This document shows positions 1 to 64,000 of a stretch of 64,000 bases of DNA, one piece after another. The notes below the pieces were generated by a model that saw only the letters and a list, made by a program, of their open reading frames with translations, had not been told where the DNA came from and made no database searches. Numbering within the stretch: the first letter of the stretch is position 1; each line of letters opens with the position of its first letter. Source of the stretch: Eledone cirrhosa (Eukaryota); the NCBI GenBank assembly GCA_964016885.1, contig OZ024743.1:224998001-225062000 (forward strand), given 5' to 3'. A program made the translations under genes and the position numbers.

Positions 1-220
1 GAAACTGTTCCTTGATCTACAGTATAAAACTGTTTATTTTAAAGTGTTCATATTTATCTAAAAACCTTCCATCATAATTTATGTAAGAACCGTACAAACA
101 CCAGTTTAATAATGAGAAAGTTAGATATATTATTAAATCCCTTCCAAACACTTGATTATTTTCAAAATTATTTGGAAACTATAGGCATTGTATTTCATTA
201 GAAATATGGTAATGAAAGGG
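1..220 (+). mobile_element. TTAA-targeting (piggyBac-type) MITE family B, 5'-truncated by window edge
   Basis: Shares 'gaaactg..cctggttctat...ttattttaaagtg...attagaaatatggtaatgaaaggg' with copies at ~556-742(-), 23828-24186, 28468-28722(-), 29376-29611, 34490-34730, 37864-38078 and 38855-39104(-). Best copies end ...AAAGGG-TTAA. Confidence 0.6.
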
Positions 221-4869: not shown

Positions 4870-5090
4870 GGGTGTGTGAGGTCCATATTCTCAGGTGGGC
4901 TGATATCTGGGCACTCACTTAGTATATGTTCAACACTCTGTTCTGGCAAGCAGCACTGGAATGGACACAGTGCCTAGTGAAGCATGGTTGCATTGACTTG
5001 GTTGACACCAAGTGTAGCCAATTCAAGTACATTCACTTGCTCCAAGTGAGGTTAGCCTCTGGGGAGAGAGCCACATGGGGCTTGATATTT
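4870..5090 (-). pseudogene. Decayed 3' end of an Ingi/Vingi-like (I-group) LINE ORF
   Basis: Minus-strand translation 'K*MYLNWLH / GVNQVNATMLH*ALCPFQCCLPEQSVEHILSECP' resembles the WxxLNRLRTG..WG..CxC..QTxEHILxECP zinc knuckle. Confidence 0.45.
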
Positions 5091-5095
5091 AGTTG

Positions 5096-8000
5096 GGCTG
5101 GTAGTGTAGACCAGTGGCTGATAGTGTAGGCCAGTGGCTGATAGTGTAGGCCAGTGGCTGGTAGTGTAGGCCAGTGGCTGATAGTGTAGGCCAGTGGCTG
5201 ATAGTGTAGGCCAGTGGCTGGTAGTGTAGGCCAGTGGCTGATAGTGTAGGCCAGTGGCTGGTAGTGTAAGCCAGTGGCTGGTAGTGTAGGCCAGTGGCTT
5301 GTGGTGTAGGCCAGTGGCTGATAGTGTAGGCCAGTGGCTGGTAGTGTAGGCCAGTGGCTTGTGGTGTAGGCCAGTGGCTGATAGTGTAGGCCAGTGGCTG
5401 GTAGTGTAGGCCAGTGGCTGGTAGTGTAAGCCAGTGGCTGGTAGTGTAGGCCAGTGGCTTGTGGTGTAGGCTAGTGGCTGATAGTGTAGGCCAGTGGCTG
5501 ATAGTGTAGGCCAGTGGCTGGTAGTGTAGGCCAGTGGCTGATAGTGTAGGCCAGTGGCTGGTAGTGTAGGCCAGTGGCTGATAGTGTAGGCCAGTGGCTG
5601 GTAGTGTAGGCCAGTGGCTGGTAGTGTAGGCCAGTGGCTGATAGTGTAGGCCAGTGGCTGATAGTGTAGGCCAGTGGCTGATAGTATAGGCCAGTGGCTG
5701 GTAGTGTAGGCCAGTGGCTGGTAGTGTAGGCCAGTGGCTGATAGTGTAGGCCAGTGGCTGATAGTGTAGGCCAGTGGCTGATAGTGTAGGCCAGTGGCTG
5801 ATAGTATAGGCCAGTGGCTGATAGTGTAGGCCAGTGGCTGGTAGTGTAGGCCAGTGGCTGATAGTGTAGGCCAGTGGCTGATAGTGTAGGCCAGTGGCTG
5901 ATAGTATAGGCCAGTGGCTGGTAGTGTAGGCCAGTGGCTGGTAGTGTAGGCCAGTGGCTGGTAGTGTAGGCCAGTGGCTGATAGTGTAGGCCAGTGGCTG
6001 GTAGTGTAGGCCAGTGGCTGATAGTGTAGGCCAGTGGCTGATAGTGTAGGCCAGTGGCTGGTAGTGTAGGCCAGTGGCTGATAGTGTAGGCCAGTGGCTG
6101 ATAGTGTAGGCCAGTGGCTGGTAGTGTAGGCCAGTGGCTGGTAGTGTAGGCCAGTGGCTGGTAGTGTAAGCCAGTGGCTGGTAGTGTAGGCCAGTGGCTG
6201 ATAGTGTAGGCCAGTGGCTGGTAGTGTAGGCCAGTGGCTGGTAGTGTAGGCCAGTGGCTGATAGTGTAGGCCAGTGGCTGGTGGTGTAGGTCAGTGGCTG
6301 GTAGTGTAAGCCAGTGGCTGGTAGTGTAAGCCAGTGGCTGGTAGTGTAGGCCAGTGGCTGGTAGTGTAAGCCAGTGGCTGGTAGTGTAAGCCAGTGGCTG
6401 ATAGTGTAGGCCAGTGGCTGGTAGTGTAGGCCAGTGGCTGGTAGTGTAGGCCAGTGGCTGGTAGTGTAAGCCAGTGGCTGGTAGTGTAAGCCAGTGGCTG
6501 ATAGTGTAGGCCAGTGGCTGGTAGTGTAGGCCAGTGGCTGGTAGTGTAAGCCAGTGGCTGGTAGTGTAGGCCAGTGGCTTGTGGTGTAGGCCAGTGGCTG
6601 ATAGTGTAGGCCAGTGGCTGGTAGTGTAGGCCAGTGGCTTGTGGTGTAGGCCAGTGGCTGATAGTGTAGGCCAGTGGCTGGTAGTGTAGGCCAGTGGCTG
6701 GTAGTGTAAGCCAGTGGCTGGTAGTGTAGGCCAGTGGCTTGTGGTGTAGGCTAGTGGCTGATAGTGTAGGCCAGTGGCTGATAGTGTAGGCCAGTGGCTG
6801 GTAGTGTAGGCCAGTGGCTGATAGTGTAGGCCAGTGGCTGGTAGTGTAGGCCAGTGGCTGATAGTGTAGGCCAGTGGCTGGTAGTGTAGGCCAGTGGCTG
6901 GTAGTGTAGGCCAGTGGCTGATAGTGTAGGCCAGTGGCTGATAGTGTAGGCCAGTGGCTGATAGTATAGGCCAGTGGCTGGTAGTGTAGGCCAGTGGCTG
7001 GTAGTGTAGGCCAGTGGCTGATAGTGTAGGCCAGTGGCTGATAGTGTAGGCCAGTGGCTGATAGTGTAGGCCAGTGGCTGATAGTATAGGCCAGTGGCTG
7101 ATAGTGTAGGCCAGTGGCTGGTAGTGTAGGCCAGTGGCTGATAGTGTAGGCCAGTGGCTGATAGTGTAGGCCAGTGGCTGATAGTATAGGCCAGTGGCTG
7201 GTAGTGTAGGCCAGTGGCTGGTAGTGTAGGCCAGTGGCTGGTAGTGTAGGCCAGTGGCTGGTAGTGTAGGCCAGTGGCTGATAGTGTAGGCCAGTGGCTG
7301 GTAGTGTAGGCCAGTGGCTGATAGTGTAGGCCAGTGGCTGATAGTGTAGGCCAGTGGCTGGTAGTGTAGGCCAGTGGCTGATAGTGTAGGCCAGTGGCTG
7401 ATAGTGTAGGCCAGTGGCTGGTAGTGTAGGCCAGTGGCTGGTAGTGTAGGCCAGTGGCTGGTAGTGTAAGCCAGTGGCTGGTAGTGTAGGCCAGTGGCTG
7501 ATAGTGTAGGCCAGTGGCTGGTAGTGTAGGCCAGTGGCTGGTAGTGTAGGCCAGTGGCTGATAGTGTAGGCCAGTGGCTGGTGGTGTAGGTCAGTGGCTG
7601 GTAGTGTAAGCCAGTGGCTGGTAGTGTAAGCCAGTGGCTGGTAGTGTAGGCCAGTGGCTGGTAGTGTAAGCCAGTGGCTGGTAGTGTAAGCCAGTGGCTG
7701 ATAGTGTAGGCCAGTGGCTGGTAGTGTAGGCCAGTGGCTGGTAGTGTAGGCCAGTGGCTGGTAGTGTAAGCCAGTGGCTGGTAGTGTAAGCCAGTGGCTG
7801 ATAGTGTAGGCCAGTGGCTGGTAGTGTAGGCCAGTGGCTGGTAGTGTAAGCCAGTGGCTGGTAGTGTAAGCCAGTGGCTGGTAGTGTAGGCCAGTGGCTG
7901 GTAGTGTAAGCCAGTGGCTGGTAGTGTAAGCCAGTGGCTGATAGTGTAGGCCAGTGGCTGGTAGTGTAGGCCAGTGGCTGGTAGTGTAGGCCAGTGGCTG

Positions 8001-8330
8001 GTAGTGTAAGCCAGTGGCTGGTAGTGTAGGCCAGTGGCTGATAGTGTAGGCCAGTGGCTGGTAGTGTAAGCCAGTGGCTGGTAGTGTAAGCCAGTGGCTG
8101 GTAGTGTAAGCCAGTGGCTGATAGTGTAGGCCAGTGGCTGGTAGTGTAGGCCAGTGGCTGGTAGTGTAAGCCAGTGGCTTGTGGTGTAGGCCAGTGGCTG
8201 GTAGTGTAGGCCAGTGGCTGATAGTGTAGGCCAGTGGCTGGTAGTGTAGGCCAGTGGCTGGTAGTGTAGGCCAGTGGCTGGTAGTGTAGGCCAGTGGCTG
8301 GTAGTGTAGGCCAGTGGCTTGCGGTGTAGG
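5096..8330. repeat. 20-bp minisatellite (CCAGTGGCTG[G/A]TAGTGTAGG), about 160 units
   Basis: Direct reading; head-to-tail units with few variant positions and no spacers. Confidence 0.98.
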
Positions 8331-8389
8331 TTAGTGCCTATTACTTTCCTCCCTCTCTCTCAACAGTTTGTAAAAACAGGGATTATAGT

Positions 8390-10992: not shown

Positions 10993-11143
10993 TTAAAAGT
11001 AATTAGTCGATCATATCAACTCCAGTACTTTTTTTTTTCAAGTCTTTAAACAACATTGATTTCTGGTGGTAATCATAACATAAATGGTGTTAAAAAGAAG
11101 TTACAGCTGAAAACACATTTTGTACATGTGTATCTGTATGTGT

Positions 11144-13409
11144 ATTGTCGGGGAGAAGTGTGTACTTAACGATGATGGCATACTTGCCATCACCGACGCT
11201 GATAAGAAGGTAGCTTGGAAGTGTCACTACGAAAGGCTTCTAAATGAGGAGAACAAATGGGAGAAAGACAGTCTCCCCCACATCGACCCAATAGAGGGAC
11301 CAGCAGTGTTAGTCCAGGGTAGTACAATAAGGAAGGCAATCAAAGATATGAAGACGGGTAAGGCGGCTGGTCCTTCGGAAATAGTTGCTGAGATGCTGCA
11401 GGCATCTGGTTCGGTGGGACACACCATGGTCACCCGGATAGTTAACCAAGTCGTACAGAATGGGGTTGTTCCGAAGGACTGGCGTAGCAGCATCATCGTT
11501 AACTGCTATAAGGGAAAAGGAGATGCCCTAGATAGGAGTAACTATAGAGGCATTAAATTAATCGACCAGGTCATGAAGGTCACGGAAAAAGTAATAGCGC
11601 AACTAATCAGAGAGAGAATTGATCTAGATGAAATGCAGTTCGGATTTGTGTCAGGCAAAAGTATCACAGACGCTCTTTTCATTGTACGACAACTACAGGA
11701 GAAGTACCTAGCTAAAAGTAAACCCCTATACTTAGCTTTCGTCGACTTGGAGAAAGCCTTCGACAGAGTCCCCCGTTCCATTATCTGGTGGTCTCTTAGA
11801 AAACTAGGTGTTGACGAATGGCTTGTGAGAGCTATACAAGCCATGTATAAAGAAACAGTCAGTAAGGTTAGAATTAACAACGAATATAGTGAAGAGTTTA
11901 GCGTAAAAGTTGGTGTCCATCAGGGCTCTGTTCTTAGCCCCCTACTATTTATTATTGCCCTTCAGGCTATAACAGAGGAGTTCAAGACCGGCTGCCCATG
12001 AGAACTCCTATACGCAGATGATCTAACGCTCATAGCTGAATCAATGACCGAACTAGAGAAGAAATTCCAAACATGGAAGCACGGCCTAGAATCAAAAGGC
12101 CTTAAAATTAACCTGGCTAAGACTAAAGTTCTAGTTTGTAGGAAAGAAAATAAGGCGGCAGTCCCATCTGGGAAATGGCCATGCTCAGTGTGTAGGAAAG
12201 GCGTAGGTAGAAACTCCATTTTATGTCCCAAATGCAAAGTATGGGTGCATAAAAGATGTAGTGGGATCACAGGTAAGCTAACTAAGAACATAGATTTTAC
12301 ATGTGGCCGGTGCTCTGGTGCAATAAGTAGCAGCAAGTGCCCACAAAATACTAGCTCCTTCAACTGCGTAGAGGGTTCTATAGAAATAGTGGACAGCTTC
12401 CGTTACCTGGGTGACAAAATCAGCAGTGGGGGAGGGTGCTCTGAAAGTACAGTAGCTAGAGTCAGAACTGGATGGAAAAAGTTCAGAGAGCTTATACCAC
12501 TATTAGCCGCTAGAGGGTTCTCCCTAAAAATGAAAGGCAGGTTATACGATGCCTGCATACGAACAGCAATGCTGCATGGCAGTGAGACCTGGGCATTGTG
12601 TGCAGAACAGCAATGCTGCATGGCAGTGAGACCTGGGCATTGTGTGCAGAGGATATACGCAGACTAGAGAGGAACGAAGCTTGCATGCTCCGCTGGATGT
12701 GCAATAGTAATATACGTGAACGGCAAAGCATAAACGAACTAAGGAAAAAATTAGAAATAAGAGGGATCAGATGTTGTTTACTCGAGAGAAGGCTACGTTG
12801 GTACGGTCACGTGATGCGCATGAAAGACGACAGCTGTATAACAAAGTGCAGGGCAATAAAGATAGACGGTAGCCACGGAGTAGGCAGACCCAGAAAAACA
12901 TGGGACGAGCTGATAAATTCCGACCTCACACGCTTACACCTCTCCAAGACAATGTCACTGGACCGAGACCTTTGGCGGTACTCAGTAATAGAGAAGACCC
13001 GCCTTACCTAAATACAAAGTAAAAACCTACTACAGTCAGTAGGCATCTCTATTAAAACACCCCCCCGTCCCACCACCTCCACCCCATCCACACCGCCCCT
13101 TTCAATGTAAAGTTATGTTGGTCCCACAACATCCAGGCCGAAACAAATGAGATCGTGTAGGTGTCACGACAAAAAAACACACAGTCCACGCTGTAATGTG
13201 GCCGTGTAGGCAACACGGTAAAAACCTCCCAGACCCACACTGTAAATGTGGTTGGTGTTAGGAAGGGCATCCAACTGTAGAAAACCCGCCAGACAGTCCT
13301 ATGCGAGCAAGACAACCACTCTTGCCTCAAGTGGGAAAACCCCCGTCCAAACCCATGCAAGCATGGAACACGGACACTAAACCTGATGATGATGATGATG
13401 ATGATGATG
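11144..13409 (+). mobile_element. 5'-truncated RTE-clade LINE (RT with embedded PHD-type finger, 3' UTR, (GAT)n tail)
   Basis: RT motifs KGKGD..NYRGI, QFGF, FVDLEKAFDRV, GVHQGSVLSPLLF, YADDL, FRYLG, RRLRWYGHVMR, GRPRKTW. Disrupted by TGA at 11999 (TGG in the 62 kb copy) and a 44-bp tandem duplication at 12561-12648. Confidence 0.95.
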
Positions 13410-53580: not shown

Positions 53581-56500
53581 CATATTACGCGCCGGCTGGT
53601 TCACCCTTTCAATCACTCCCTTCTCTCACCAAATATAAATAAACCTGTTACGAGGTACGAATCTCAGAATTTGTCAACACTTATTAATGGTCAGACCTCG
53701 TCCCCTGCGAAATGTAATGTAAATGCCATTTTTTTCTTGTCTCTCCAGCCTATCGGTCCATTCATTCATATATCCGTATCATTGCCCAGAATCCAATCTT
53801 TTGCTCTCTCTCAATGCTATTCTATAATTCTGTCTGGTTGTTTCTAAATAATCTTCATGTATTTTAAAATCCCATTATTCGCTTATTATTACTGTTATAT
53901 GCTTGTCCAATTATGCCCAAAATTCGAAGATTTTATTTAAACCCTCTTGCTAACTACCCCATGCCCCTCCCACCCGCCCCCACTCTCCACCATTATTATT
54001 AGGACCAGTCATAAGTCAGCAGCCTATGCTATCACTTCTGGTTGCTTTTCGATATGATGGATGGACTATGGAATTCTGGAGAGTCTGAAAAATCTGGACA
54101 CTCAGTGACAATGCCAAACATAAAGACAAATTCACCTCATGCTGCCGGACGAAAAGGCAAGGACTCCCCCTCTTTGTATCGGCCGCAAATGAGCCACATA
54201 ACCCCAACCACGCGCCCCTCCATTCCCACCCACCAAATGCAATCCAAAACTTCAGAGTTCGTACCATGAATGTAGGCACCTTAAAAGTTCGCTCTAATGA
54301 GGTTGTAGAAATGCTTGAACGTAAGGAGGTTGATGTTTGCTATATCCAAGAGGGAGGGGTGGGTCTGCTAGATTCATTGTGGGTAAAAAACGATGCTATA
54401 AGCTTTTCTGGGGGGGAAATGACAATGGGCTGGGTGGGGTAGGAATCATGTTAGCAGAAAAATGGGTAAATAAGATAATAGACGTAAATAGAGTGAACGA
54501 CATAATTATTAAAATAAGACTTGTCCTAAATAGAACTACTGTGACAGCAATATGTGTGTATGCACCCCAATCCGGACTGCCTGGATTTGGTACTAGAAAT
54601 GAGGAAGGCTCCAGAATCCTATAATTCTGTGACGCAAATAACCTAACTATCTGTAACACTAACTTCAAAAAACGAGACAATCACTTGATCACCTATAGAT
54701 CAGGGGAACACGCCAGTCAGATAGATTATATCCTTACCAGAAGACGTGATAGAGTGTCTGTTTTAAACACTAAATCCCTCCCCCATGAAGAATGCACCTC
54801 CCAACATAGACTCATAGTCAGCGACCTCATAGTCAGGACAAGACGTACTCGACAACAGAGGATGACCATCCTCAGGAGAAAAATATGGAAGCTAAAGGAC
54901 CCCACAACCAGTAATAAATTTAAAAGCATATTACTTGATGCTTTCGACAGTAAGGAAGAGCAATTAGAGTCGTACAATATAGACGAACAGTGGGCTTTCC
55001 TGAAAGCTAACCTGCTGAAGGCAACAGATGAAGTCGGTGGCTGAAGCAGGCCTATAGGCAGGAGGAGAGTAACGTAGTGGTGAAACAGTAAGGTGGAGCA
55101 GTCAATTAAGGTCAAAAAGCAGGCTTGGAAAGTATGGCGGGATGGGGGAAGTAGAAAAGACTATCAAGTGGCCAGGAGGGAAGCTAGGAGACAAGTGTAC
55201 TTCGCAAGAGGGGAAGCAGAGGAAAGAAAGTTCAAGCATGTTCTACAACGGAAGGACCAAAAACGTGAGGTGTTCAGGATTGCTAGGCAATGTGTCAAGG
55301 AAAACAGTGATATTGTCGGGGAGAAGTGTGTCCTTAATGATGATGGTGTACTTGCCATCACTGACGCTGATAAGAAGGTAGCTTGGAAGTGTCACTACGA
55401 AAGGCTACTAAATGAGGAGAATAAATGGGAGAAAGACAGTCTCCCCCACATCGATCCAATAGAGGGACCAGCAGTGCTAGTTGAAGGTAGTATAATAAGT
55501 AAGGCAATCAAAGATATGAAGACGGGCAAGGCGGCTGGGCCTTCAGAAATAGTTGCTGAAATACTGAAAGCATCTGGAACGGTGGACACACTATGGTCAC
55601 CCAGATAGTAAACCATGTCATACAGAATGGGGCCGTTCCGAAGGACTGGAGTAGCAGCATCATCATTAACTGCTACAAGGGTAAAGGAGATTCCCTAGAT
55701 AGGGGAAACTATAGAGGCATTAAATTAATCGACCAAGTCATGAAGGTCACAGAAAAAGTAATAGCACAACTAATCAGAGAACGAATTGATCTAGATGAAA
55801 TGCAGTTCGGGTTTGTGTCAGATAAAAGTAGCACAGACGCTCTTTTCATTGTACGACAACTACAGGAGAAGTACCTAGCTAAAAGTAAACCCCTATACTT
55901 AGCTTTTGTTGACTTGGAGAAAGCCTTTGACAGAGTCCTCCGCTCCATTATCTGGTAGGCTCTTAGAAAACTAGGTGTTGATGAATGGCTTGTGAGAGCT
56001 ATACAAGCCATGTATAAAGAAACAGTCAGCAAGGTTAGAATTAACAACGAATAGATTGAAGAGTTTAGCGTAAAAGTTGGTGTTCATCAGGGCTCCGTTC
56101 TTATCCCCCTACTATTTATTATTGCCCTTCAGGCTATAACAGAGGAGTTCAAGACCGGCTGACCATGGTAACTCCTATATGCAGATGATCTAACGCTCAT
56201 AGCTGAACTAGAGAAGAAATTCCAAACATGGAAGCATGGCCTAGAATCAAAAGGCCTTAAAGTTAACTTGTCTAAGACTAAAGTTCTAGTTTGTAGGAAG
56301 GAAAATAGGGCACCGGTCCCATCTGGGAAATGGCCATGCTCAGTGTGTAGGAAAGGAGTAGGCAGAAACTCCATTTTATGTCCCAAATGCAAAGTATGGG
56401 TGCATAAAAGATGTAGTGGGATCACAGGTAAGCTAACTAAGAATATAGATTTTATATGTGGCCGGTGCTCTGGTGCATTAAGTAGCAGCAAGTGCCCACA

Positions 56501-57693
56501 GAATACTAGCTCATTACATTGCACAGATGGTTCTATAGAAATAGTGGACACCTTCCATTACCTGGGTGACAAAATCAGCAGTGGGGGAGGGTGCTCTGAA
56601 AGGACAGTACGTAGAGTCAGAACGGGATGGAAAAAGTTCAGAGAGCTTATACCACTATTGGCCGTTAAAGGGTTCTCTCTAAAAATGAAAGGCAGGATGT
56701 ACGATACCTGCATACGAACAGCAATGTTACATGGGCATTGTGTGCAGAGGATATACGCAGACTGGAGAGAAACGAAGCTTGCATGCTCCGCTGGATGTGT
56801 AATAGTGATTGTGTAATATACATGAACGGCAAAGTATAAACGAACTAAGGGAAAAATTAGGAATAAGAGGGATCAGATGTTGTTTACTCGAGAGAAGACT
56901 ACATTGGTACAGTCACGTGATGCGCATGAAAGACGACAGCTCTATAAAAAAGTGCAGGGTGATAAAAATAGACGGTAGCCACGGAGTAGGCAGACCCAGA
57001 AAAACCTGGGACGACTTGATAAATTCCGACCTCACACACTTACACCTCTCCAAGACAATATCACTGGACCAAGATCTTTGGCACTACACAGTTATACAGA
57101 AGACCCGCCTTGCCTAAGTACAAAGCGAAACCTACAGTCAGTAGGCACCTCTAACAAAAATACACCCCCGTCCCACTATCCTCACCCCATCCACACTACC
57201 CCCTTAAATGTGAAGTTATGTTGGTACCACAACATCCAGTCCGAAACAAATGAGGTCGTGTAGGTGTCAGTCCATGCTGTAATGTGGCCATGTAGGTAAC
57301 ACGGTAAAAACCTCCCAGTCCACACTGTAAATGTGGTTGGTGTTGGGAAGGGCACCTAGCCGTAGAAAACCCGCCAGACGTGTAGGTGTCATGACAAAAA
57401 AACACACAGTCCATGCTGTAATGTGGCCGTGTAGGTAACACGGTAAAAACCTCCCAGTCCACACTGTAAACGTTTACAGTGTGGACTGGGAGGTTTTTAC
57501 CGTGTTACCTACACGGCCACATTACAGCATGGACTGTGTGTTTTTTGTCGTGAAGGAATGGCATCCAGCCGTAGAAAACCCGCCAGACAGTCCTATACGA
57601 GCAGGACAACCAATCTTGCCTCAAGTGGGAAAACTCCCGTCCAAACCCATGGAAGCGTGGAAGATGGACGTTAAACGATGATGATGATGATGA
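53581..57693 (+). mobile_element. Near full-length RTE LINE (APE endonuclease + RT with PHD-type finger), disrupted; 5' boundary uncertain
   Basis: APE motifs from 54251 (FRVRTMNVGTL..DVCYIQE, GVGI, VYAPQ, SQIDYIL, SQHRLIV) with an internal deletion near 54582; RT motifs as in the 11.1 kb copy; multiple stops and frameshifts; (GAT)n tail. Confidence 0.92.
57389..57553. repeat. Spacerless ~82-bp-arm palindrome inside the RTE 3' UTR
   Basis: Centre gtaaac|gtttac at 57471/57472; arms nearly perfect. Confidence 0.92.
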
Positions 57694-60901: not shown

Positions 60902-62437
60902 ATCATCATCATCAACGTTTAACGTCCGTGTTCCACGCTTGCATGGGTTTGGACGGGGGTTTTCCCACTTGAGGCAAGAGTGATTGTCTTGCTCGCATAG
61001 GACTGTCTGGCAGGTTTTCTACAGTTGGATGCCCTTCCTAACACCAACCACATTTACAGTGTGGGTCTGGGAGGTTTTTACCGTGTTGCCTACACGGCCA
61101 CATTACAGCGTGGACTGTGTGTTTTTTTGTCGTGACACCTACACGATCTCATTTGTTTCGGCCTGGATGGTGTGGCACCAACATAACTTTACATAGAAGG
61201 GGGCGGTGTGGATGGGGTGGGGGTGGTGTATTTTGTTAGAGATGCCTACTGACTGTAGTAGGTTTTACTTTGTATTTAGGTAAGGCGGGTCTTCTCTATT
61301 ACTGAGTACCGCCAAAGGTCTCGGTCCAGTGACATTGTCTTGGTGAGGTGTAAGTGTGTGAGGTCGGAGTTTATCAGCTCGTCCCAGGTTTTTCTGGGTC
61401 TGCCTATTCCGTGGCTACCGTCTATCTTTATTGCCCTGCACTTTGTTATACAGCTATCGTCCTTCATGCGCATCACGTGACCATACCAACGTAGCCTTCT
61501 CTCGAGTAGACAACATCTGATCCCTCTTATTTCTAATTTTTTCCTTAGTTCGTTTATGCTTTGTCATTCACGTATATTACTATTACACATCCAGCGGAGC
61601 ATGCAAGCATCGTTTCTCTCTAGTCTGTGTATATCCTCTGCACACAATGCCCAGGTCTCACTGCCATGCAACATTGCTGTTCGTATGCAGGCATCGTACA
61701 ACCTGCCTTTCATTTTTAAGGAGAACCCTTTAGCGGCTAATAGTGGTATAAGCTCTCTGAACTTTTTCCACCCAGTTCTGACTCTAGCTACTGTACTTTA
61801 AGAGCACCCTCCCCCACTGCTGATTTTGTCACCCAGGTAACGGAAGCTGTCCACTATTTCTATAGAACCCTCTGCGCAGTTGAAAGAGCTAGTATTTTGT
61901 GGGCACTTGCTGCTACTTATTGCGCCAGAACACCGGCCACATGTAAAATCTATGTTCTTAGTTAGCTTACCTGTGATCCCACTACATCTTTTATGCACCC
62001 AAACTTTGCATTTGGGACACAAAATGGAGTTTCTACCTACGCCTTTCCTACACACTGCGCATGGCCACTTCCCGGAGGGGACCGCCGCCTTATTTTCTTT
62101 CTTACAAACTAGAACTTTAGTCTTAGCCAGGTTAATTTTAAGGCCTTTTGATTCTAGGCCGTGCTTCCATGTTTGGAATTTCTTCTCTAGCTCGGCCATT
62201 GATTCAGCTATGAGCGTTAGATCATCTGCGTATAGGAGTTCCCATGGGCAGCCGGTCTTGAACTCCACTGTTATAGCCTGGAGGGCAATAATAAATAGTA
62301 GGAGGCTAAGAACAGAGCCCTGATGAACACCAACTTTTACACTAAACTCTTCACTATATTCGTTGTTAATTCTAACCTTGCTGACTGTTTCTTTATACAT
62401 GGCTTGTATAGCTCTCACAAGCCATTCATCAACACCT
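60902..62437 (-). mobile_element. 5'-truncated RTE LINE, same subfamily as 11144-13409
   Basis: ORF 61798-62505 GVDEWL..GVHQGSVLS..CPWELLYADDL..WPCAVC..HKRC..CGRC..FRYLG; 3' UTR nearly identical to 13010-13390. Confidence 0.95.
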
Positions 62438-62451
62438 ATATATATATATAT

Positions 62452-62494
<43 letters not shown>

Positions 62495-63566
62495 TGTAAA
62501 TGCATATGACATAGTGGTTAGAGTTGAATTCACAATCATGAGGTTGTGAGTTTGATTCCCAGACTGGGCGATGTATTGTGTCCTTGAGCAAGACACTTTA
62601 TTTTATGCTGTACCAGTTTTTACCTTTTCCTTGCAATGTCTTGGTTACCCACTTTGTATGTATACAGATATAACTTTACATGCACTTTGGTTGCTAGAGC
62701 ACTTCTTAAAATATATGTGTATGTGCATATGTGTGCACATGTGTGTGTGTGTATATATATATATATTATGTCTGCTTTCCATGCTAACATATGTTATATA
62801 GGTTGTCATGGTCCAAGACTAGAAGGCACAGAGAGACCACCATTTGTTCATTTTAACCATATTTTGACATGGTTTTTATGGCTGGAAGCTCTTCCTAACG
62901 TCAACTGTTTTATAGAGTGAATTGGGTACATTTTATCATAACACCAGCACTATGACTTACAGTTGTAATTACCACTGAATATTATATAGAACACTCAGAG
63001 CAGAGGAACTCAGGTGCGTTAACAACTATCAAATAGTATGAAAAAAACAGGTAGATAGAGCTTATTAGCTTCGGTTAGCAGTCTGTTGAGGGGAAGGATC
63101 ACTCTGATTTCAAACAGATGGAACTCCTTAGTCACATTGGTGACAACCTTTCATGTGGCCAATGGTTTCATTTGTGATAAAGTCAGATGAGCTGCAGCTT
63201 GATATCCAGCTTCTGATGAAGATTCAGGACCTACCAACATCACTTTTTTCCTGATGAAAATTATGAACATACAGCATCATATAGATTATTGGTGCTATTG
63301 TTCATGGACCCCAACCCTCAGTAATAAAGATGGGAAGAGACCAGACCAGTCTTTTGGGCAGAATCTAGTTAATAAAAGAATTCTTTTATTCATTTAATAG
63401 TTTCAGCTATTAAGCTGTGGCCATACTGGGGCACTTCCTTGAAGAGATTAAGTTAACCATATTAACTTCTATACTTATTGTTTCAAGACTGGTACTTATT
63501 CTATCAATTTTTTTTCATCTAACTGCTACATTGTTGGACATATACATACAGCATACATATATACAT

Positions 63567-63611
<45 letters not shown>

Positions 63612-63653
63612 ATGATATTAAATAAATGGAAACTATATTTATAAAACCATATT

Positions 63654-63715
63654 TATTCTATTATATATATTTTAAGGGTACCAAAAACTTTGGTACGCTT
63701 TCATCAGATAAAATA
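63654..63715 (-). ncRNA. Mirror hammerhead copy with G12A (GAAA to AAAA)
   Basis: Reverse complement reads TATTTTAT-CTGATGA-AAGCGTACCA..TGGTACCCTT-AAAA-TATATATA-ATAGAATA. Confidence 0.65.
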
Positions 63716-63838
63716 CAAAGTGTGTTTTATAAATTTTGACATAGCCAAGGAACATACCTTATCAGTTGAATTTTCCTTGGATAGTCAACTGATAAGGTAT
63801 GTTCCTTGGCTATGTCAAAATTTATAAAACACACTTTG

Positions 63839-63900
63839 TATTTTATCTGATGAAAGCATACCAAAATTTTTGGTACCCTTGAAATATATATAATAGAATA
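63839..63900 (+). ncRNA. Type I minimal hammerhead ribozyme, canonical core
   Basis: Stem I TATTTTAT/ATAGAATA; CTGATGA 63847-53; stem II AAG..TACCA/TGGTA..CTT; GAAA 63881-84; stem III AT-ATAT-AT; predicted cleavage after A63892; AATAAA follows. Confidence 0.8.
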
Positions 63901-64000
63901 AATATGGTTTTATAAATATAGTTTCCATTTATTTAATATCATTGAATATTTACTCCAGAAATCTGTCGAGTGCCCTGAATCAGTTATAAACATTTATATT

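What the first reader, a model, noticed from the sequence alone, without database searches (positions are those of the whole stretch)
63611..63943. Young 159-bp palindrome carrying an intact minimal hammerhead and a G12A-inactivated mirror copy
The right arm has a fully canonical core (CTGATGA, GAAA, AUA triplet), an 8-bp stem I and a 2-bp stem III capped by the self-complementary loop ATAT, the design known for dimer-cleaving minimal hammerheads of Penelope-like elements. One of the few differences between the arms hits the catalytic G12 of the left copy. A transcript across both arms would form a long dsRNA that sequesters the ribozyme and could be an ADAR or Dicer substrate (inference).
Basis: partly seen in the sequence, partly recalled or inferred. 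Interest (0 to 1): 0.75.

Follow-up and report, generated by a model that had tools for sequence, protein, structure and literature searches.

The report
Head-to-head Penelope retrotransposon stub with hammerhead
The mirror-image sequence and its hammerhead motif are real, but they are one of many similar stubs of a Penelope-type jumping gene in this genome, and the broken mirror copy is likely ordinary decay; across the family, an extra G at the stubs' inner ends suggests they were likely copied from the capped, uncut start of the element's RNA.

Summary
The palindrome (three differences in 159 bp) and the type I hammerhead are real, but the locus is ordinary. Each arm is the hammerhead-bearing terminal repeat of a high-copy Hydra-clade Penelope-like retrotransposon. 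A 25-base hammerhead segment has 5,155 exact matches, and 39 of 84 consecutive loci are head-to-head pairs. The right arm runs 93 bp further, past the window end, as the one-sided PLE tail; both ends sit in (TA)n. G12A occurs in 80 of 5,235 matches (1.5%), the neutral G>A rate, in either arm. The 'intact' arm has two G>A changes of its own. The layout is published (Cervera 2014; Craig 2021), and this scan found it before on other DNA. One family-level result I did not find in print: copies starting exactly at the Inr-like TTC|ACTATCC carry a non-element G in 30 of 42 and 49 of 95 cases, against 1 of 31 and 3 of 24 just downstream. Also, 68 of 82 pairs join one short-end and one long-end arm. 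This suggests two cDNAs primed on capped, uncleaved sense RNA. Cleavage and expression are untested.

The parts
63538..63610 (.). TA-rich microsatellite (target site, left flank)
   Evidence: Sequence; the family's 3' ends run into (TA)n
63611..63785 (-). Left arm: pLTR/5'UTR copy from the putative transcription start (A of TTC|ACTATCC at 63785) to the short 3' end (site A, ATCATT)
   Evidence: Aligns to family positions -15..159
63654..63715 (-). Hammerhead motif of the left arm, G12A at 63673, stem II as in the family majority
   Evidence: G12A is a sporadic variant, 80 vs 5,155 exact matches
63785..63786 (.). Head-to-head junction (2-nt overlap). C63786 is the complement of the putative cap-derived G, but the right arm's own sequence also has this base, so the G is ambiguous at this locus
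   Evidence: same 25-nt junction at 3 loci genome-wide
63785..63944 (+). Right arm: 5'-truncated pLTR copy, family positions 1-160
63839..63900 (+). Type I hammerhead motif with intact core (CUGAUGA 63847-63853, GAAA 63881-63884, predicted cleavage after 63892); G>A at 63858 breaks a stem II pair
63945..64000 (+). One-sided 'tail' (5'UTR sequence up to the long 3' end, site B, CTGCTT|ATA); continues to about 64037, beyond the window, then (TA)n. In tandem copies the same sequence reads on to the ORF's ATG about 53 nt further

Best explanation
This is a short head-to-head insertion of two 5'-end copies of a Hydra-clade Penelope-like retrotransposon in a TA repeat, likely made during insertion, and the G12A change is likely neutral decay afterwards. 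Shown: the arms are the element's hammerhead-bearing terminal repeat. In longer copies this repeat lies 3' of an RT plus GIY-YIG-type ORF, and in tandem copies just 5' of its ATG. Copies end at two fixed 3' sites (A, and B 93 nt further), and pairs nearly always combine one of each. Many copies begin at an Inr-like site, often with one extra G. Most copies run through the hammerhead cleavage site. Inferred: the element's protein nicks both strands of (TA)n and primes reverse transcription twice on capped, uncleaved sense mRNA, once at A and once at B. Each cDNA runs up to about 176 or 269 nt toward the cap (sometimes copying it as C), and the two cDNA 3' ends are joined by 1-3 nt microhomology. 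The hammerhead likely serves the parent element as a weak, dimer- or protein-assisted ribozyme. At this locus it is likely a passenger that any read-through transcript would bury in dsRNA.
For: Family: 2,041 first-look candidates; 5,155 and 6,553 exact matches to two 25-mers, 0 for the reversed controls. Parent ORF in longer copies, with RT core, RLRWR, DKT, CNCRIKSNC (CxCx5C), no CCHH, CKLCIEE and SCRH. These match the Hydra clade description except RWR for RWK. Homologues include Hydra vulgaris and Octopus bimaculoides proteins. Layout: 39 of 84 consecutive C1 loci are head-to-head pairs, 34 of them A/B; 68 of all 82 distinct pairs held are A/B, 6 B/B, 4 A/A, 4 other (p about 1e-11 vs equal odds). 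Extra G: 30 of 42 and 49 of 95 vs 1 of 31 and 3 of 24, counted by hand from the listings; Fisher p 1e-9 for the first pair. Uncleaved template: 24 of 30 copies anchored 3' of the ribozyme extend 5' past the cleavage site, with no pile-up there. Neutral decay: G>A 14.4 vs C>T 13.3 and A>G 2.5 vs T>C 3.2 per 1000 sites. Literature: inverted 5'-truncated copy with one-sided tail (PMC8557442); Penelope-13_HM with a hammerhead on both strands; opposite-strand min-HHR pairs 100-700 bp apart (PMC4209133); two RT start sites, both strands extended and hammerhead cleavage not needed in vitro (PMC11167929).
Against: No transcription start was measured; the cap reading rests on genomic G enrichment, and many of those Gs follow partner-arm sequence ending in TTG, so microhomology could inflate the count. 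At this locus the G is ambiguous. In 41 of 68 A/B pairs neither arm reaches the start site by BLAST end points, so run-off at the cap is a mode, not the rule. 45 of 84 loci are not pairs, and 10 of 82 pairs are A/A or B/B. Arkhipova 2013 read head-to-head palindromes as self-priming on an antisense template. The tail is 93 nt, not the 30-40 nt described. Clade assignment is by motifs, with no tree against reference Hydra proteins.
Confidence: 0.85

Rival explanations
1. The inverted arm arises by fold-back (self-priming) of a single cDNA or of an antisense template, not by two primings.
For: An 8-bp inverted repeat (CCAAGGAA...TTCCTTGG) lies at the 5' hot spot, and some junctions fall in it (e.g. 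L029, L074, L160). Arms share subfamily haplotypes and 57 rare alleles; four pairs carry G12A in both arms. Proposed in PMC3846280.
Against: Simple fold-back does not explain why the two arms end at two different fixed sites, each also used by solo copies (23 B, 20 A among unpaired loci). It also does not explain an extra G at the sense 5' end.
Confidence: 0.25
2. A locus-specific RNA device: an active ribozyme with a deliberately inactivated antisense partner that gates it or feeds ADAR or Dicer.
For: The core of the right arm is intact, and a read-through RNA would form a very stable duplex.
Against: G12A is at the neutral rate. Most pairs have two intact cores (17 of 24). The right arm has its own stem II lesion. 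No Pfam hit above its curated cut-off other than RT and RT-associated PHD domains among 135 of 183 candidate frames from 30 kb before to 30 kb after (short exons would be missed).
Confidence: 0.03
3. Fold-back sequencing or assembly artefact.
For: Palindromes are a known artefact class; no read set here resolved this locus.
Against: The arms differ at three sites, split 2:1 between arms against the family majority. They end at two different family-specific sites and have unrelated outer flanks. 82 distinct pairs with varied junctions were seen.
Confidence: 0.02
4. A palindromic non-autonomous element (MITE-like or retrozyme-like) that spreads as a unit.
For: The exact junction recurs at 3 loci, with near-identical junctions at L139 and L181.
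Against: Junctions are otherwise highly varied. Retrozymes are head-to-tail tandem arrays (bioRxiv 10.64898/2026.07.22.740005).
Confidence: 0.05

Closest known systems
Hydra clade of C-terminal EN+ Penelope-like elements (Craig et al. 2021, PMC8557442), incl. Penelope-13_HM and Hydra-1_Obim
   Same: DKT, CxCx5C linker, no CCHH, CxxC and CxH around the conserved E and N, (TA)n target, hammerhead in the terminal repeat; Penelope-13_HM is listed with a 5'-truncated inverted copy and a hammerhead on both strands.
   Different: RWR in place of RWK; unit about 3.3 kb with a 3'UTR over 1 kb (vs generally under 3 kb); 93-nt tail; hammerhead sequence unlike Hydra-1_Obim, so a different family; triplet AUA.
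PLE insertion unit with inverted pLTR and one-sided tail (Arkhipova 2013 PMC3846280; Craig 2021 Fig. 2 legend)
   Same: Head-to-head inverted pLTR, tail at one end, Inr-like TCACT in the pLTR.
   Different: Here the whole insert is only two short terminal-repeat copies. The A/B end rule and extra 5' G are counted here and favour a sense template, which the 2013 paper left open.
Minimal / dimer-type type I hammerheads of metazoan PLEs (Cervera and de la Pena 2014, PMC4209133)
   Same: Long stem II, tiny self-complementary stem III, opposite-strand pairs 100-700 bp apart already reported.
   Different: 8-bp stem I; A-U rather than G-C next to the core; activity untested.
PAc Poseidon element in vitro (Frangieh 2024, PMC11167929)
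   Same: Two RT start sites defining the tail; both target strands extended; uncleaved RNA as main substrate.
   Different: PAc starts RT inside the ORF at an AC-rich stem loop not homologous to the target. Here both ends lie in the 5'UTR at AU-rich points resembling (TA)n.

Membership tests
Hydra-clade PLE | Single ORF, RT with C-terminal GIY-YIG-type EN | tested here: met
   RT core followed by EN-like region (VVY...YVG, R, H, E, N) in L043/L046/L051; Pfam gave no hit; all copies seen are broken
Hydra-clade PLE | RWK motif | tested here: inconclusive
   RLRWR in this family and its two closest homologues; RWK in four further homologues at the same column
Hydra-clade PLE | DKT in place of DKG | tested here: met
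   KSDKTNNLY
Hydra-clade PLE | CxCx5C linker, no CCHH, CxxC and CxH flanking E and N | tested here: met
Hydra-clade PLE | (TA)n insertion preference and hammerhead in terminal repeat | tested here: met
Hydra-clade PLE | Placement in the Hydra clade in an RT tree | not tested
   No named reference proteins were fetched; a Hydra vulgaris protein is among the hits
PLE inverted-pLTR insertion unit | Head-to-head inverted 5'-truncated copy with tail at one end | tested here: met
   This locus, and 68 of 82 pairs
PLE inverted-pLTR insertion unit | Target-site duplication | tested here: inconclusive
   Not discernible within (TA)n
Type I hammerhead ribozyme | Conserved core and three stems | tested here: met
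   Right arm; core differs from majority at 2.3% of cells vs 7.1% in flanks across 111 copies not selected on the ribozyme; no Rfam hit
Type I hammerhead ribozyme | Self-cleavage | not testable with these tools
   Predicted share of the active monomer fold about 1e-4; copies show no 5' ends at the cleavage site
Non-LTR retrozyme | Head-to-tail tandem units each with a hammerhead | tested here: not met
   Arrangement is head-to-head and the sequence is contiguous with a PLE ORF

The most novel reading that the evidence does not exclude
These stubs are a large fossil record of the PLE priming step: one RNP primes twice, at two fixed 5'UTR sites, on capped sense mRNA whose hammerhead has not cleaved, and reverse-transcribes the cap. 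This would settle the sense-versus-antisense template question for head-to-head PLE palindromes and explain the inverted pLTR and one-sided tail as products of one reaction.
Probability: 0.55. Interest if true: 0.5.

Novelty: new member of a known kind. Interest (0 to 1): 0.25.

Why it matters
The locus itself matters little. The family-level counts bear on an open point in PLE biology: how inverted terminal repeats form and whether the template is sense or antisense, cleaved or uncleaved. A cap-like G at a fixed 5' end and the A/B end rule make this directly testable. Such palindromes are also an abundant potential dsRNA source in a lineage known for heavy RNA editing (recalled), though no expression was shown here.

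Tried and rejected
Rfam scan: no hammerhead family hit. Pfam on the parent ORF pieces: no hit. Sequencing runs: no RNA holder listed, which says nothing on expression. Laying contigs and RAD reads on the junction, right arm and right flank showed the family in a second study's DNA but could not resolve this locus; no record spanned it. APOBEC-like strand bias, suggested by all three arm differences being G>A on the sense strand: rejected, G>A and C>T are symmetric. A-to-I fossil signal in genomic copies: none (A>G 2.5 vs T>C 3.2). A dead G12A subfamily: rejected, G12A sits on many haplotypes. Pile-up of 5' ends at the cleavage site: not seen. Host gene near the locus: none detected, weak test. 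Paper searches for a cap-derived G in PLEs and the scan's notes returned no such report. The library lacks most subscription papers. Of supplements I saw only the search hits and part 2 of 59 of the PMC8557442 archive; the other papers' supplements, unseen, could bear on novelty.

Full report
Observation. The inverted repeat is real. Arms 63611-63769 and 63785-63943 differ at three sites: right 63858 and 63866, and left 63673 (G12A). Rfam does not detect it. The active monomer fold has a predicted share of about 1e-4, as expected for dimer-type hammerheads. The right arm is not pristine: its 63858 A breaks a stem II pair, and both its differences depart from the family majority.

The arm is a high-copy repeat. 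A search of the 3.0-Gb own genome gave 2,041 first-look candidates, with top copies 98-99% identical. Two 25-mers from the arm match 5,155 and 6,553 places exactly, with 0 for the reversed controls. The right arm does not stop at 63943: it continues 93 bp as shared family sequence to about window 64037 and then enters (TA)n. The left arm ends in (TA)n directly. The 15-nt spacer is the left arm's own 5' part. The host looks like an octopus. This is an inference from an Octopus bimaculoides homologue and an earlier scan note on this genome, not a test.

Parent element. [quoted passage not shown] Walking 3' from the tail leads, in tandem copies, to the ORF's ATG about 53 nt after the tail end. 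Motifs: RLRWR, DKT, CNCRIKSNC, no CCHH, CKLCIEE, SCRH. Craig et al. 2021 (PMC8557442; passages, section 11 and part 2 of 59 of the supplement read) define the Hydra clade by RWK, DKT, CxCx5C, loss of CCHH, CxxC/CxH, hammerheads and (TA)n targeting. All are met except RWK, which is RWR here. No tree was built. All ORF copies seen are broken.

The palindrome is a family habit. I took the first 100 listed matches (contig C1), merged to 84 loci. Of these, 39 hold a head-to-head pair within 1 kb (34 A/B, 2 A/A, 3 with one unclassified end) and 45 do not; a few of these pairs are neighbours, not the anchor copy. 3' ends fall at two sites: A (about position 160) and B (about 253). Of all 82 distinct pairs in the loci held, a partly selected set, 68 are A/B, 6 B/B, 4 A/A, 4 other. 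Unpaired copies use both sites (23 B, 20 A, 4 other). Junctions vary, with 0-3 nt overlaps common; this locus's exact junction occurs 3 times. The arrangement is published. An inverted 5'-truncated copy with a one-sided tail is described in PMC8557442. Penelope-13_HM has an inverted copy with a hammerhead on both strands. Opposite-strand min-HHR pairs 100-700 bp apart are in PMC4209133 (parts 1-2 of 4 read). The scan's notes list ten similar findings, eight shown.

G12A is neutral decay. It occurs in 80 exact matches vs 5,155 for G12 (1.5%). Arm-arm differences, polarised by nearest copies in pairs under 8% apart, give G>A 14.4 and C>T 13.3 per 1000 sites, the two commonest changes, with position 97 left out; A>G 2.5 vs T>C 3.2. 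G12A sits in A and B arms and on many haplotypes. Of the 39 unselected pairs, 15 lack one full hammerhead. Of the other 24, 17 have two intact cores, 4 have one altered and 3 have both altered, none by G12A (the anchor arm was selected as G12). Four pairs carry G12A in both arms, more than independence would give; a shared template or later conversion between arms could each explain it. Across 111 copies not selected on the ribozyme, the core varies at 2.3% of cells vs 7.1% in flanks. Related families keep the core with different stem II sequences. This points to selection in source elements, not at this locus.

5' ends. Copies pile up around positions -18 to -10, at TTC|ACTATCC, an Inr-like TCACT also noted in rotifer pLTRs (PMC3846280; passages and Discussion read). 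Among copies that begin with ACTATCC and lack the element's preceding C, the preceding base is G in 30 of 42 (T 10, A 2) and, in a second subfamily, 49 of 95 (A 29, T 17). For starts two bases and one base further in, it is G in 1 of 31 and 3 of 24. These were counted by hand from the listings; matches with C eleven bases upstream were excluded by the pattern, which also excludes this locus. Collapsing double-counted loci gives 26 of 37 vs 1 of 27, p 3e-8. An untemplated 5' G is read in L1 work as possible cap copying (PMC9341517, one passage). Caveats: many Gs follow partner sequence ending in TTG; at this locus the base is shared by both arms; and in 41 of 68 A/B pairs neither arm reaches the site by BLAST end points. 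Of 30 copies anchored 3' of the ribozyme, 24 extend past the cleavage site and none starts cleanly there, so templates were mostly uncleaved.

Mechanism. Most likely the RNP nicks both strands of (TA)n and primes twice on capped sense RNA, at A and at B; both sites are followed by AU-rich sequence resembling the target. The two short cDNAs are then joined head to head (inferred, about 0.6). This fits PAc in vitro: two start sites that define the tail, both strands extended, predicted dimer, hammerhead cleavage dispensable and protein-assisted (PMC11167929, parts 1-2 of 4 read). The rival is fold-back or antisense self-priming (PMC3846280), about 0.25. Identity as a PLE stub is about 0.95. D. 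virilis Penelope also starts within its upstream repeat (PMC2377424, passages). Retrozymes are tandem arrays (bioRxiv 10.64898/2026.07.22.740005, part 1 of 5), which this is not.

Context and expression. The surrounding 60 kb gave only RT-related hits above Pfam's cut-offs in 135 of 183 candidate frames scanned. Expression, editing and dicing at this locus are untested.

Verdict. A new family member of a known kind of element, in a known arrangement; the G12A mirror is incidental. The cap-like G was not found in paper searches or the scan's notes and is the only part likely to interest a specialist. Interest 0.25.

Noticed in passing
G000:C7:80178354, C10:30205168, C18:14197231, C20:11367384 (L192-L195): Four palindromes carry G12A in both arms on at least three different haplotypes. 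Either dead-ribozyme RNAs were retrotransposed or the arms were homogenised afterwards.
   Followed up: partly
L002 (upstream of 1661, minus), L019, L028, L047: Other hammerhead families with the same core and TA-rich stem III but different stem II sit next to or nested with this family, some as their own palindromes.
   Followed up: partly
L092, L135: Neighbouring pairs of a diverged subfamily in which the CUGAUGA box is altered at five positions in both arms.
   Followed up: no
L137 junction: The junction contains CCCTAACCCTAA, a short telomere-repeat-like filler (motif recalled), between the arms.
   Followed up: no
window 57396-57546 and about 61060-61125: Another hairpin-forming repeat family (ACCGTGTTACCTACACGGCCACATTACAGC-type), present as a palindrome at 57396-57546 and as a single arm near 61070.
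   Followed up: no
window about 5050-8360: Long tandem array of about 20-bp units, open in several frames on the minus strand, with strong GC skew.
   Followed up: no
window 11111-12667, 55084-56816, 61798-62517: Fragments of an RTE-like LINE (RVT_1 plus a PHD-like finger; the RTE label is recalled).
   Followed up: partly
window 63213-63262: CTGATGA...GAAA spacing resembling a hammerhead core 350 bp left of the palindrome; no convincing stem I seen, probably chance.
   Followed up: no
L051:2564-3323: A 760-bp palindrome made from the ORF's internal 5' part with a (TA)n centre, showing that inversions also form far from the terminal repeat.
   Followed up: no
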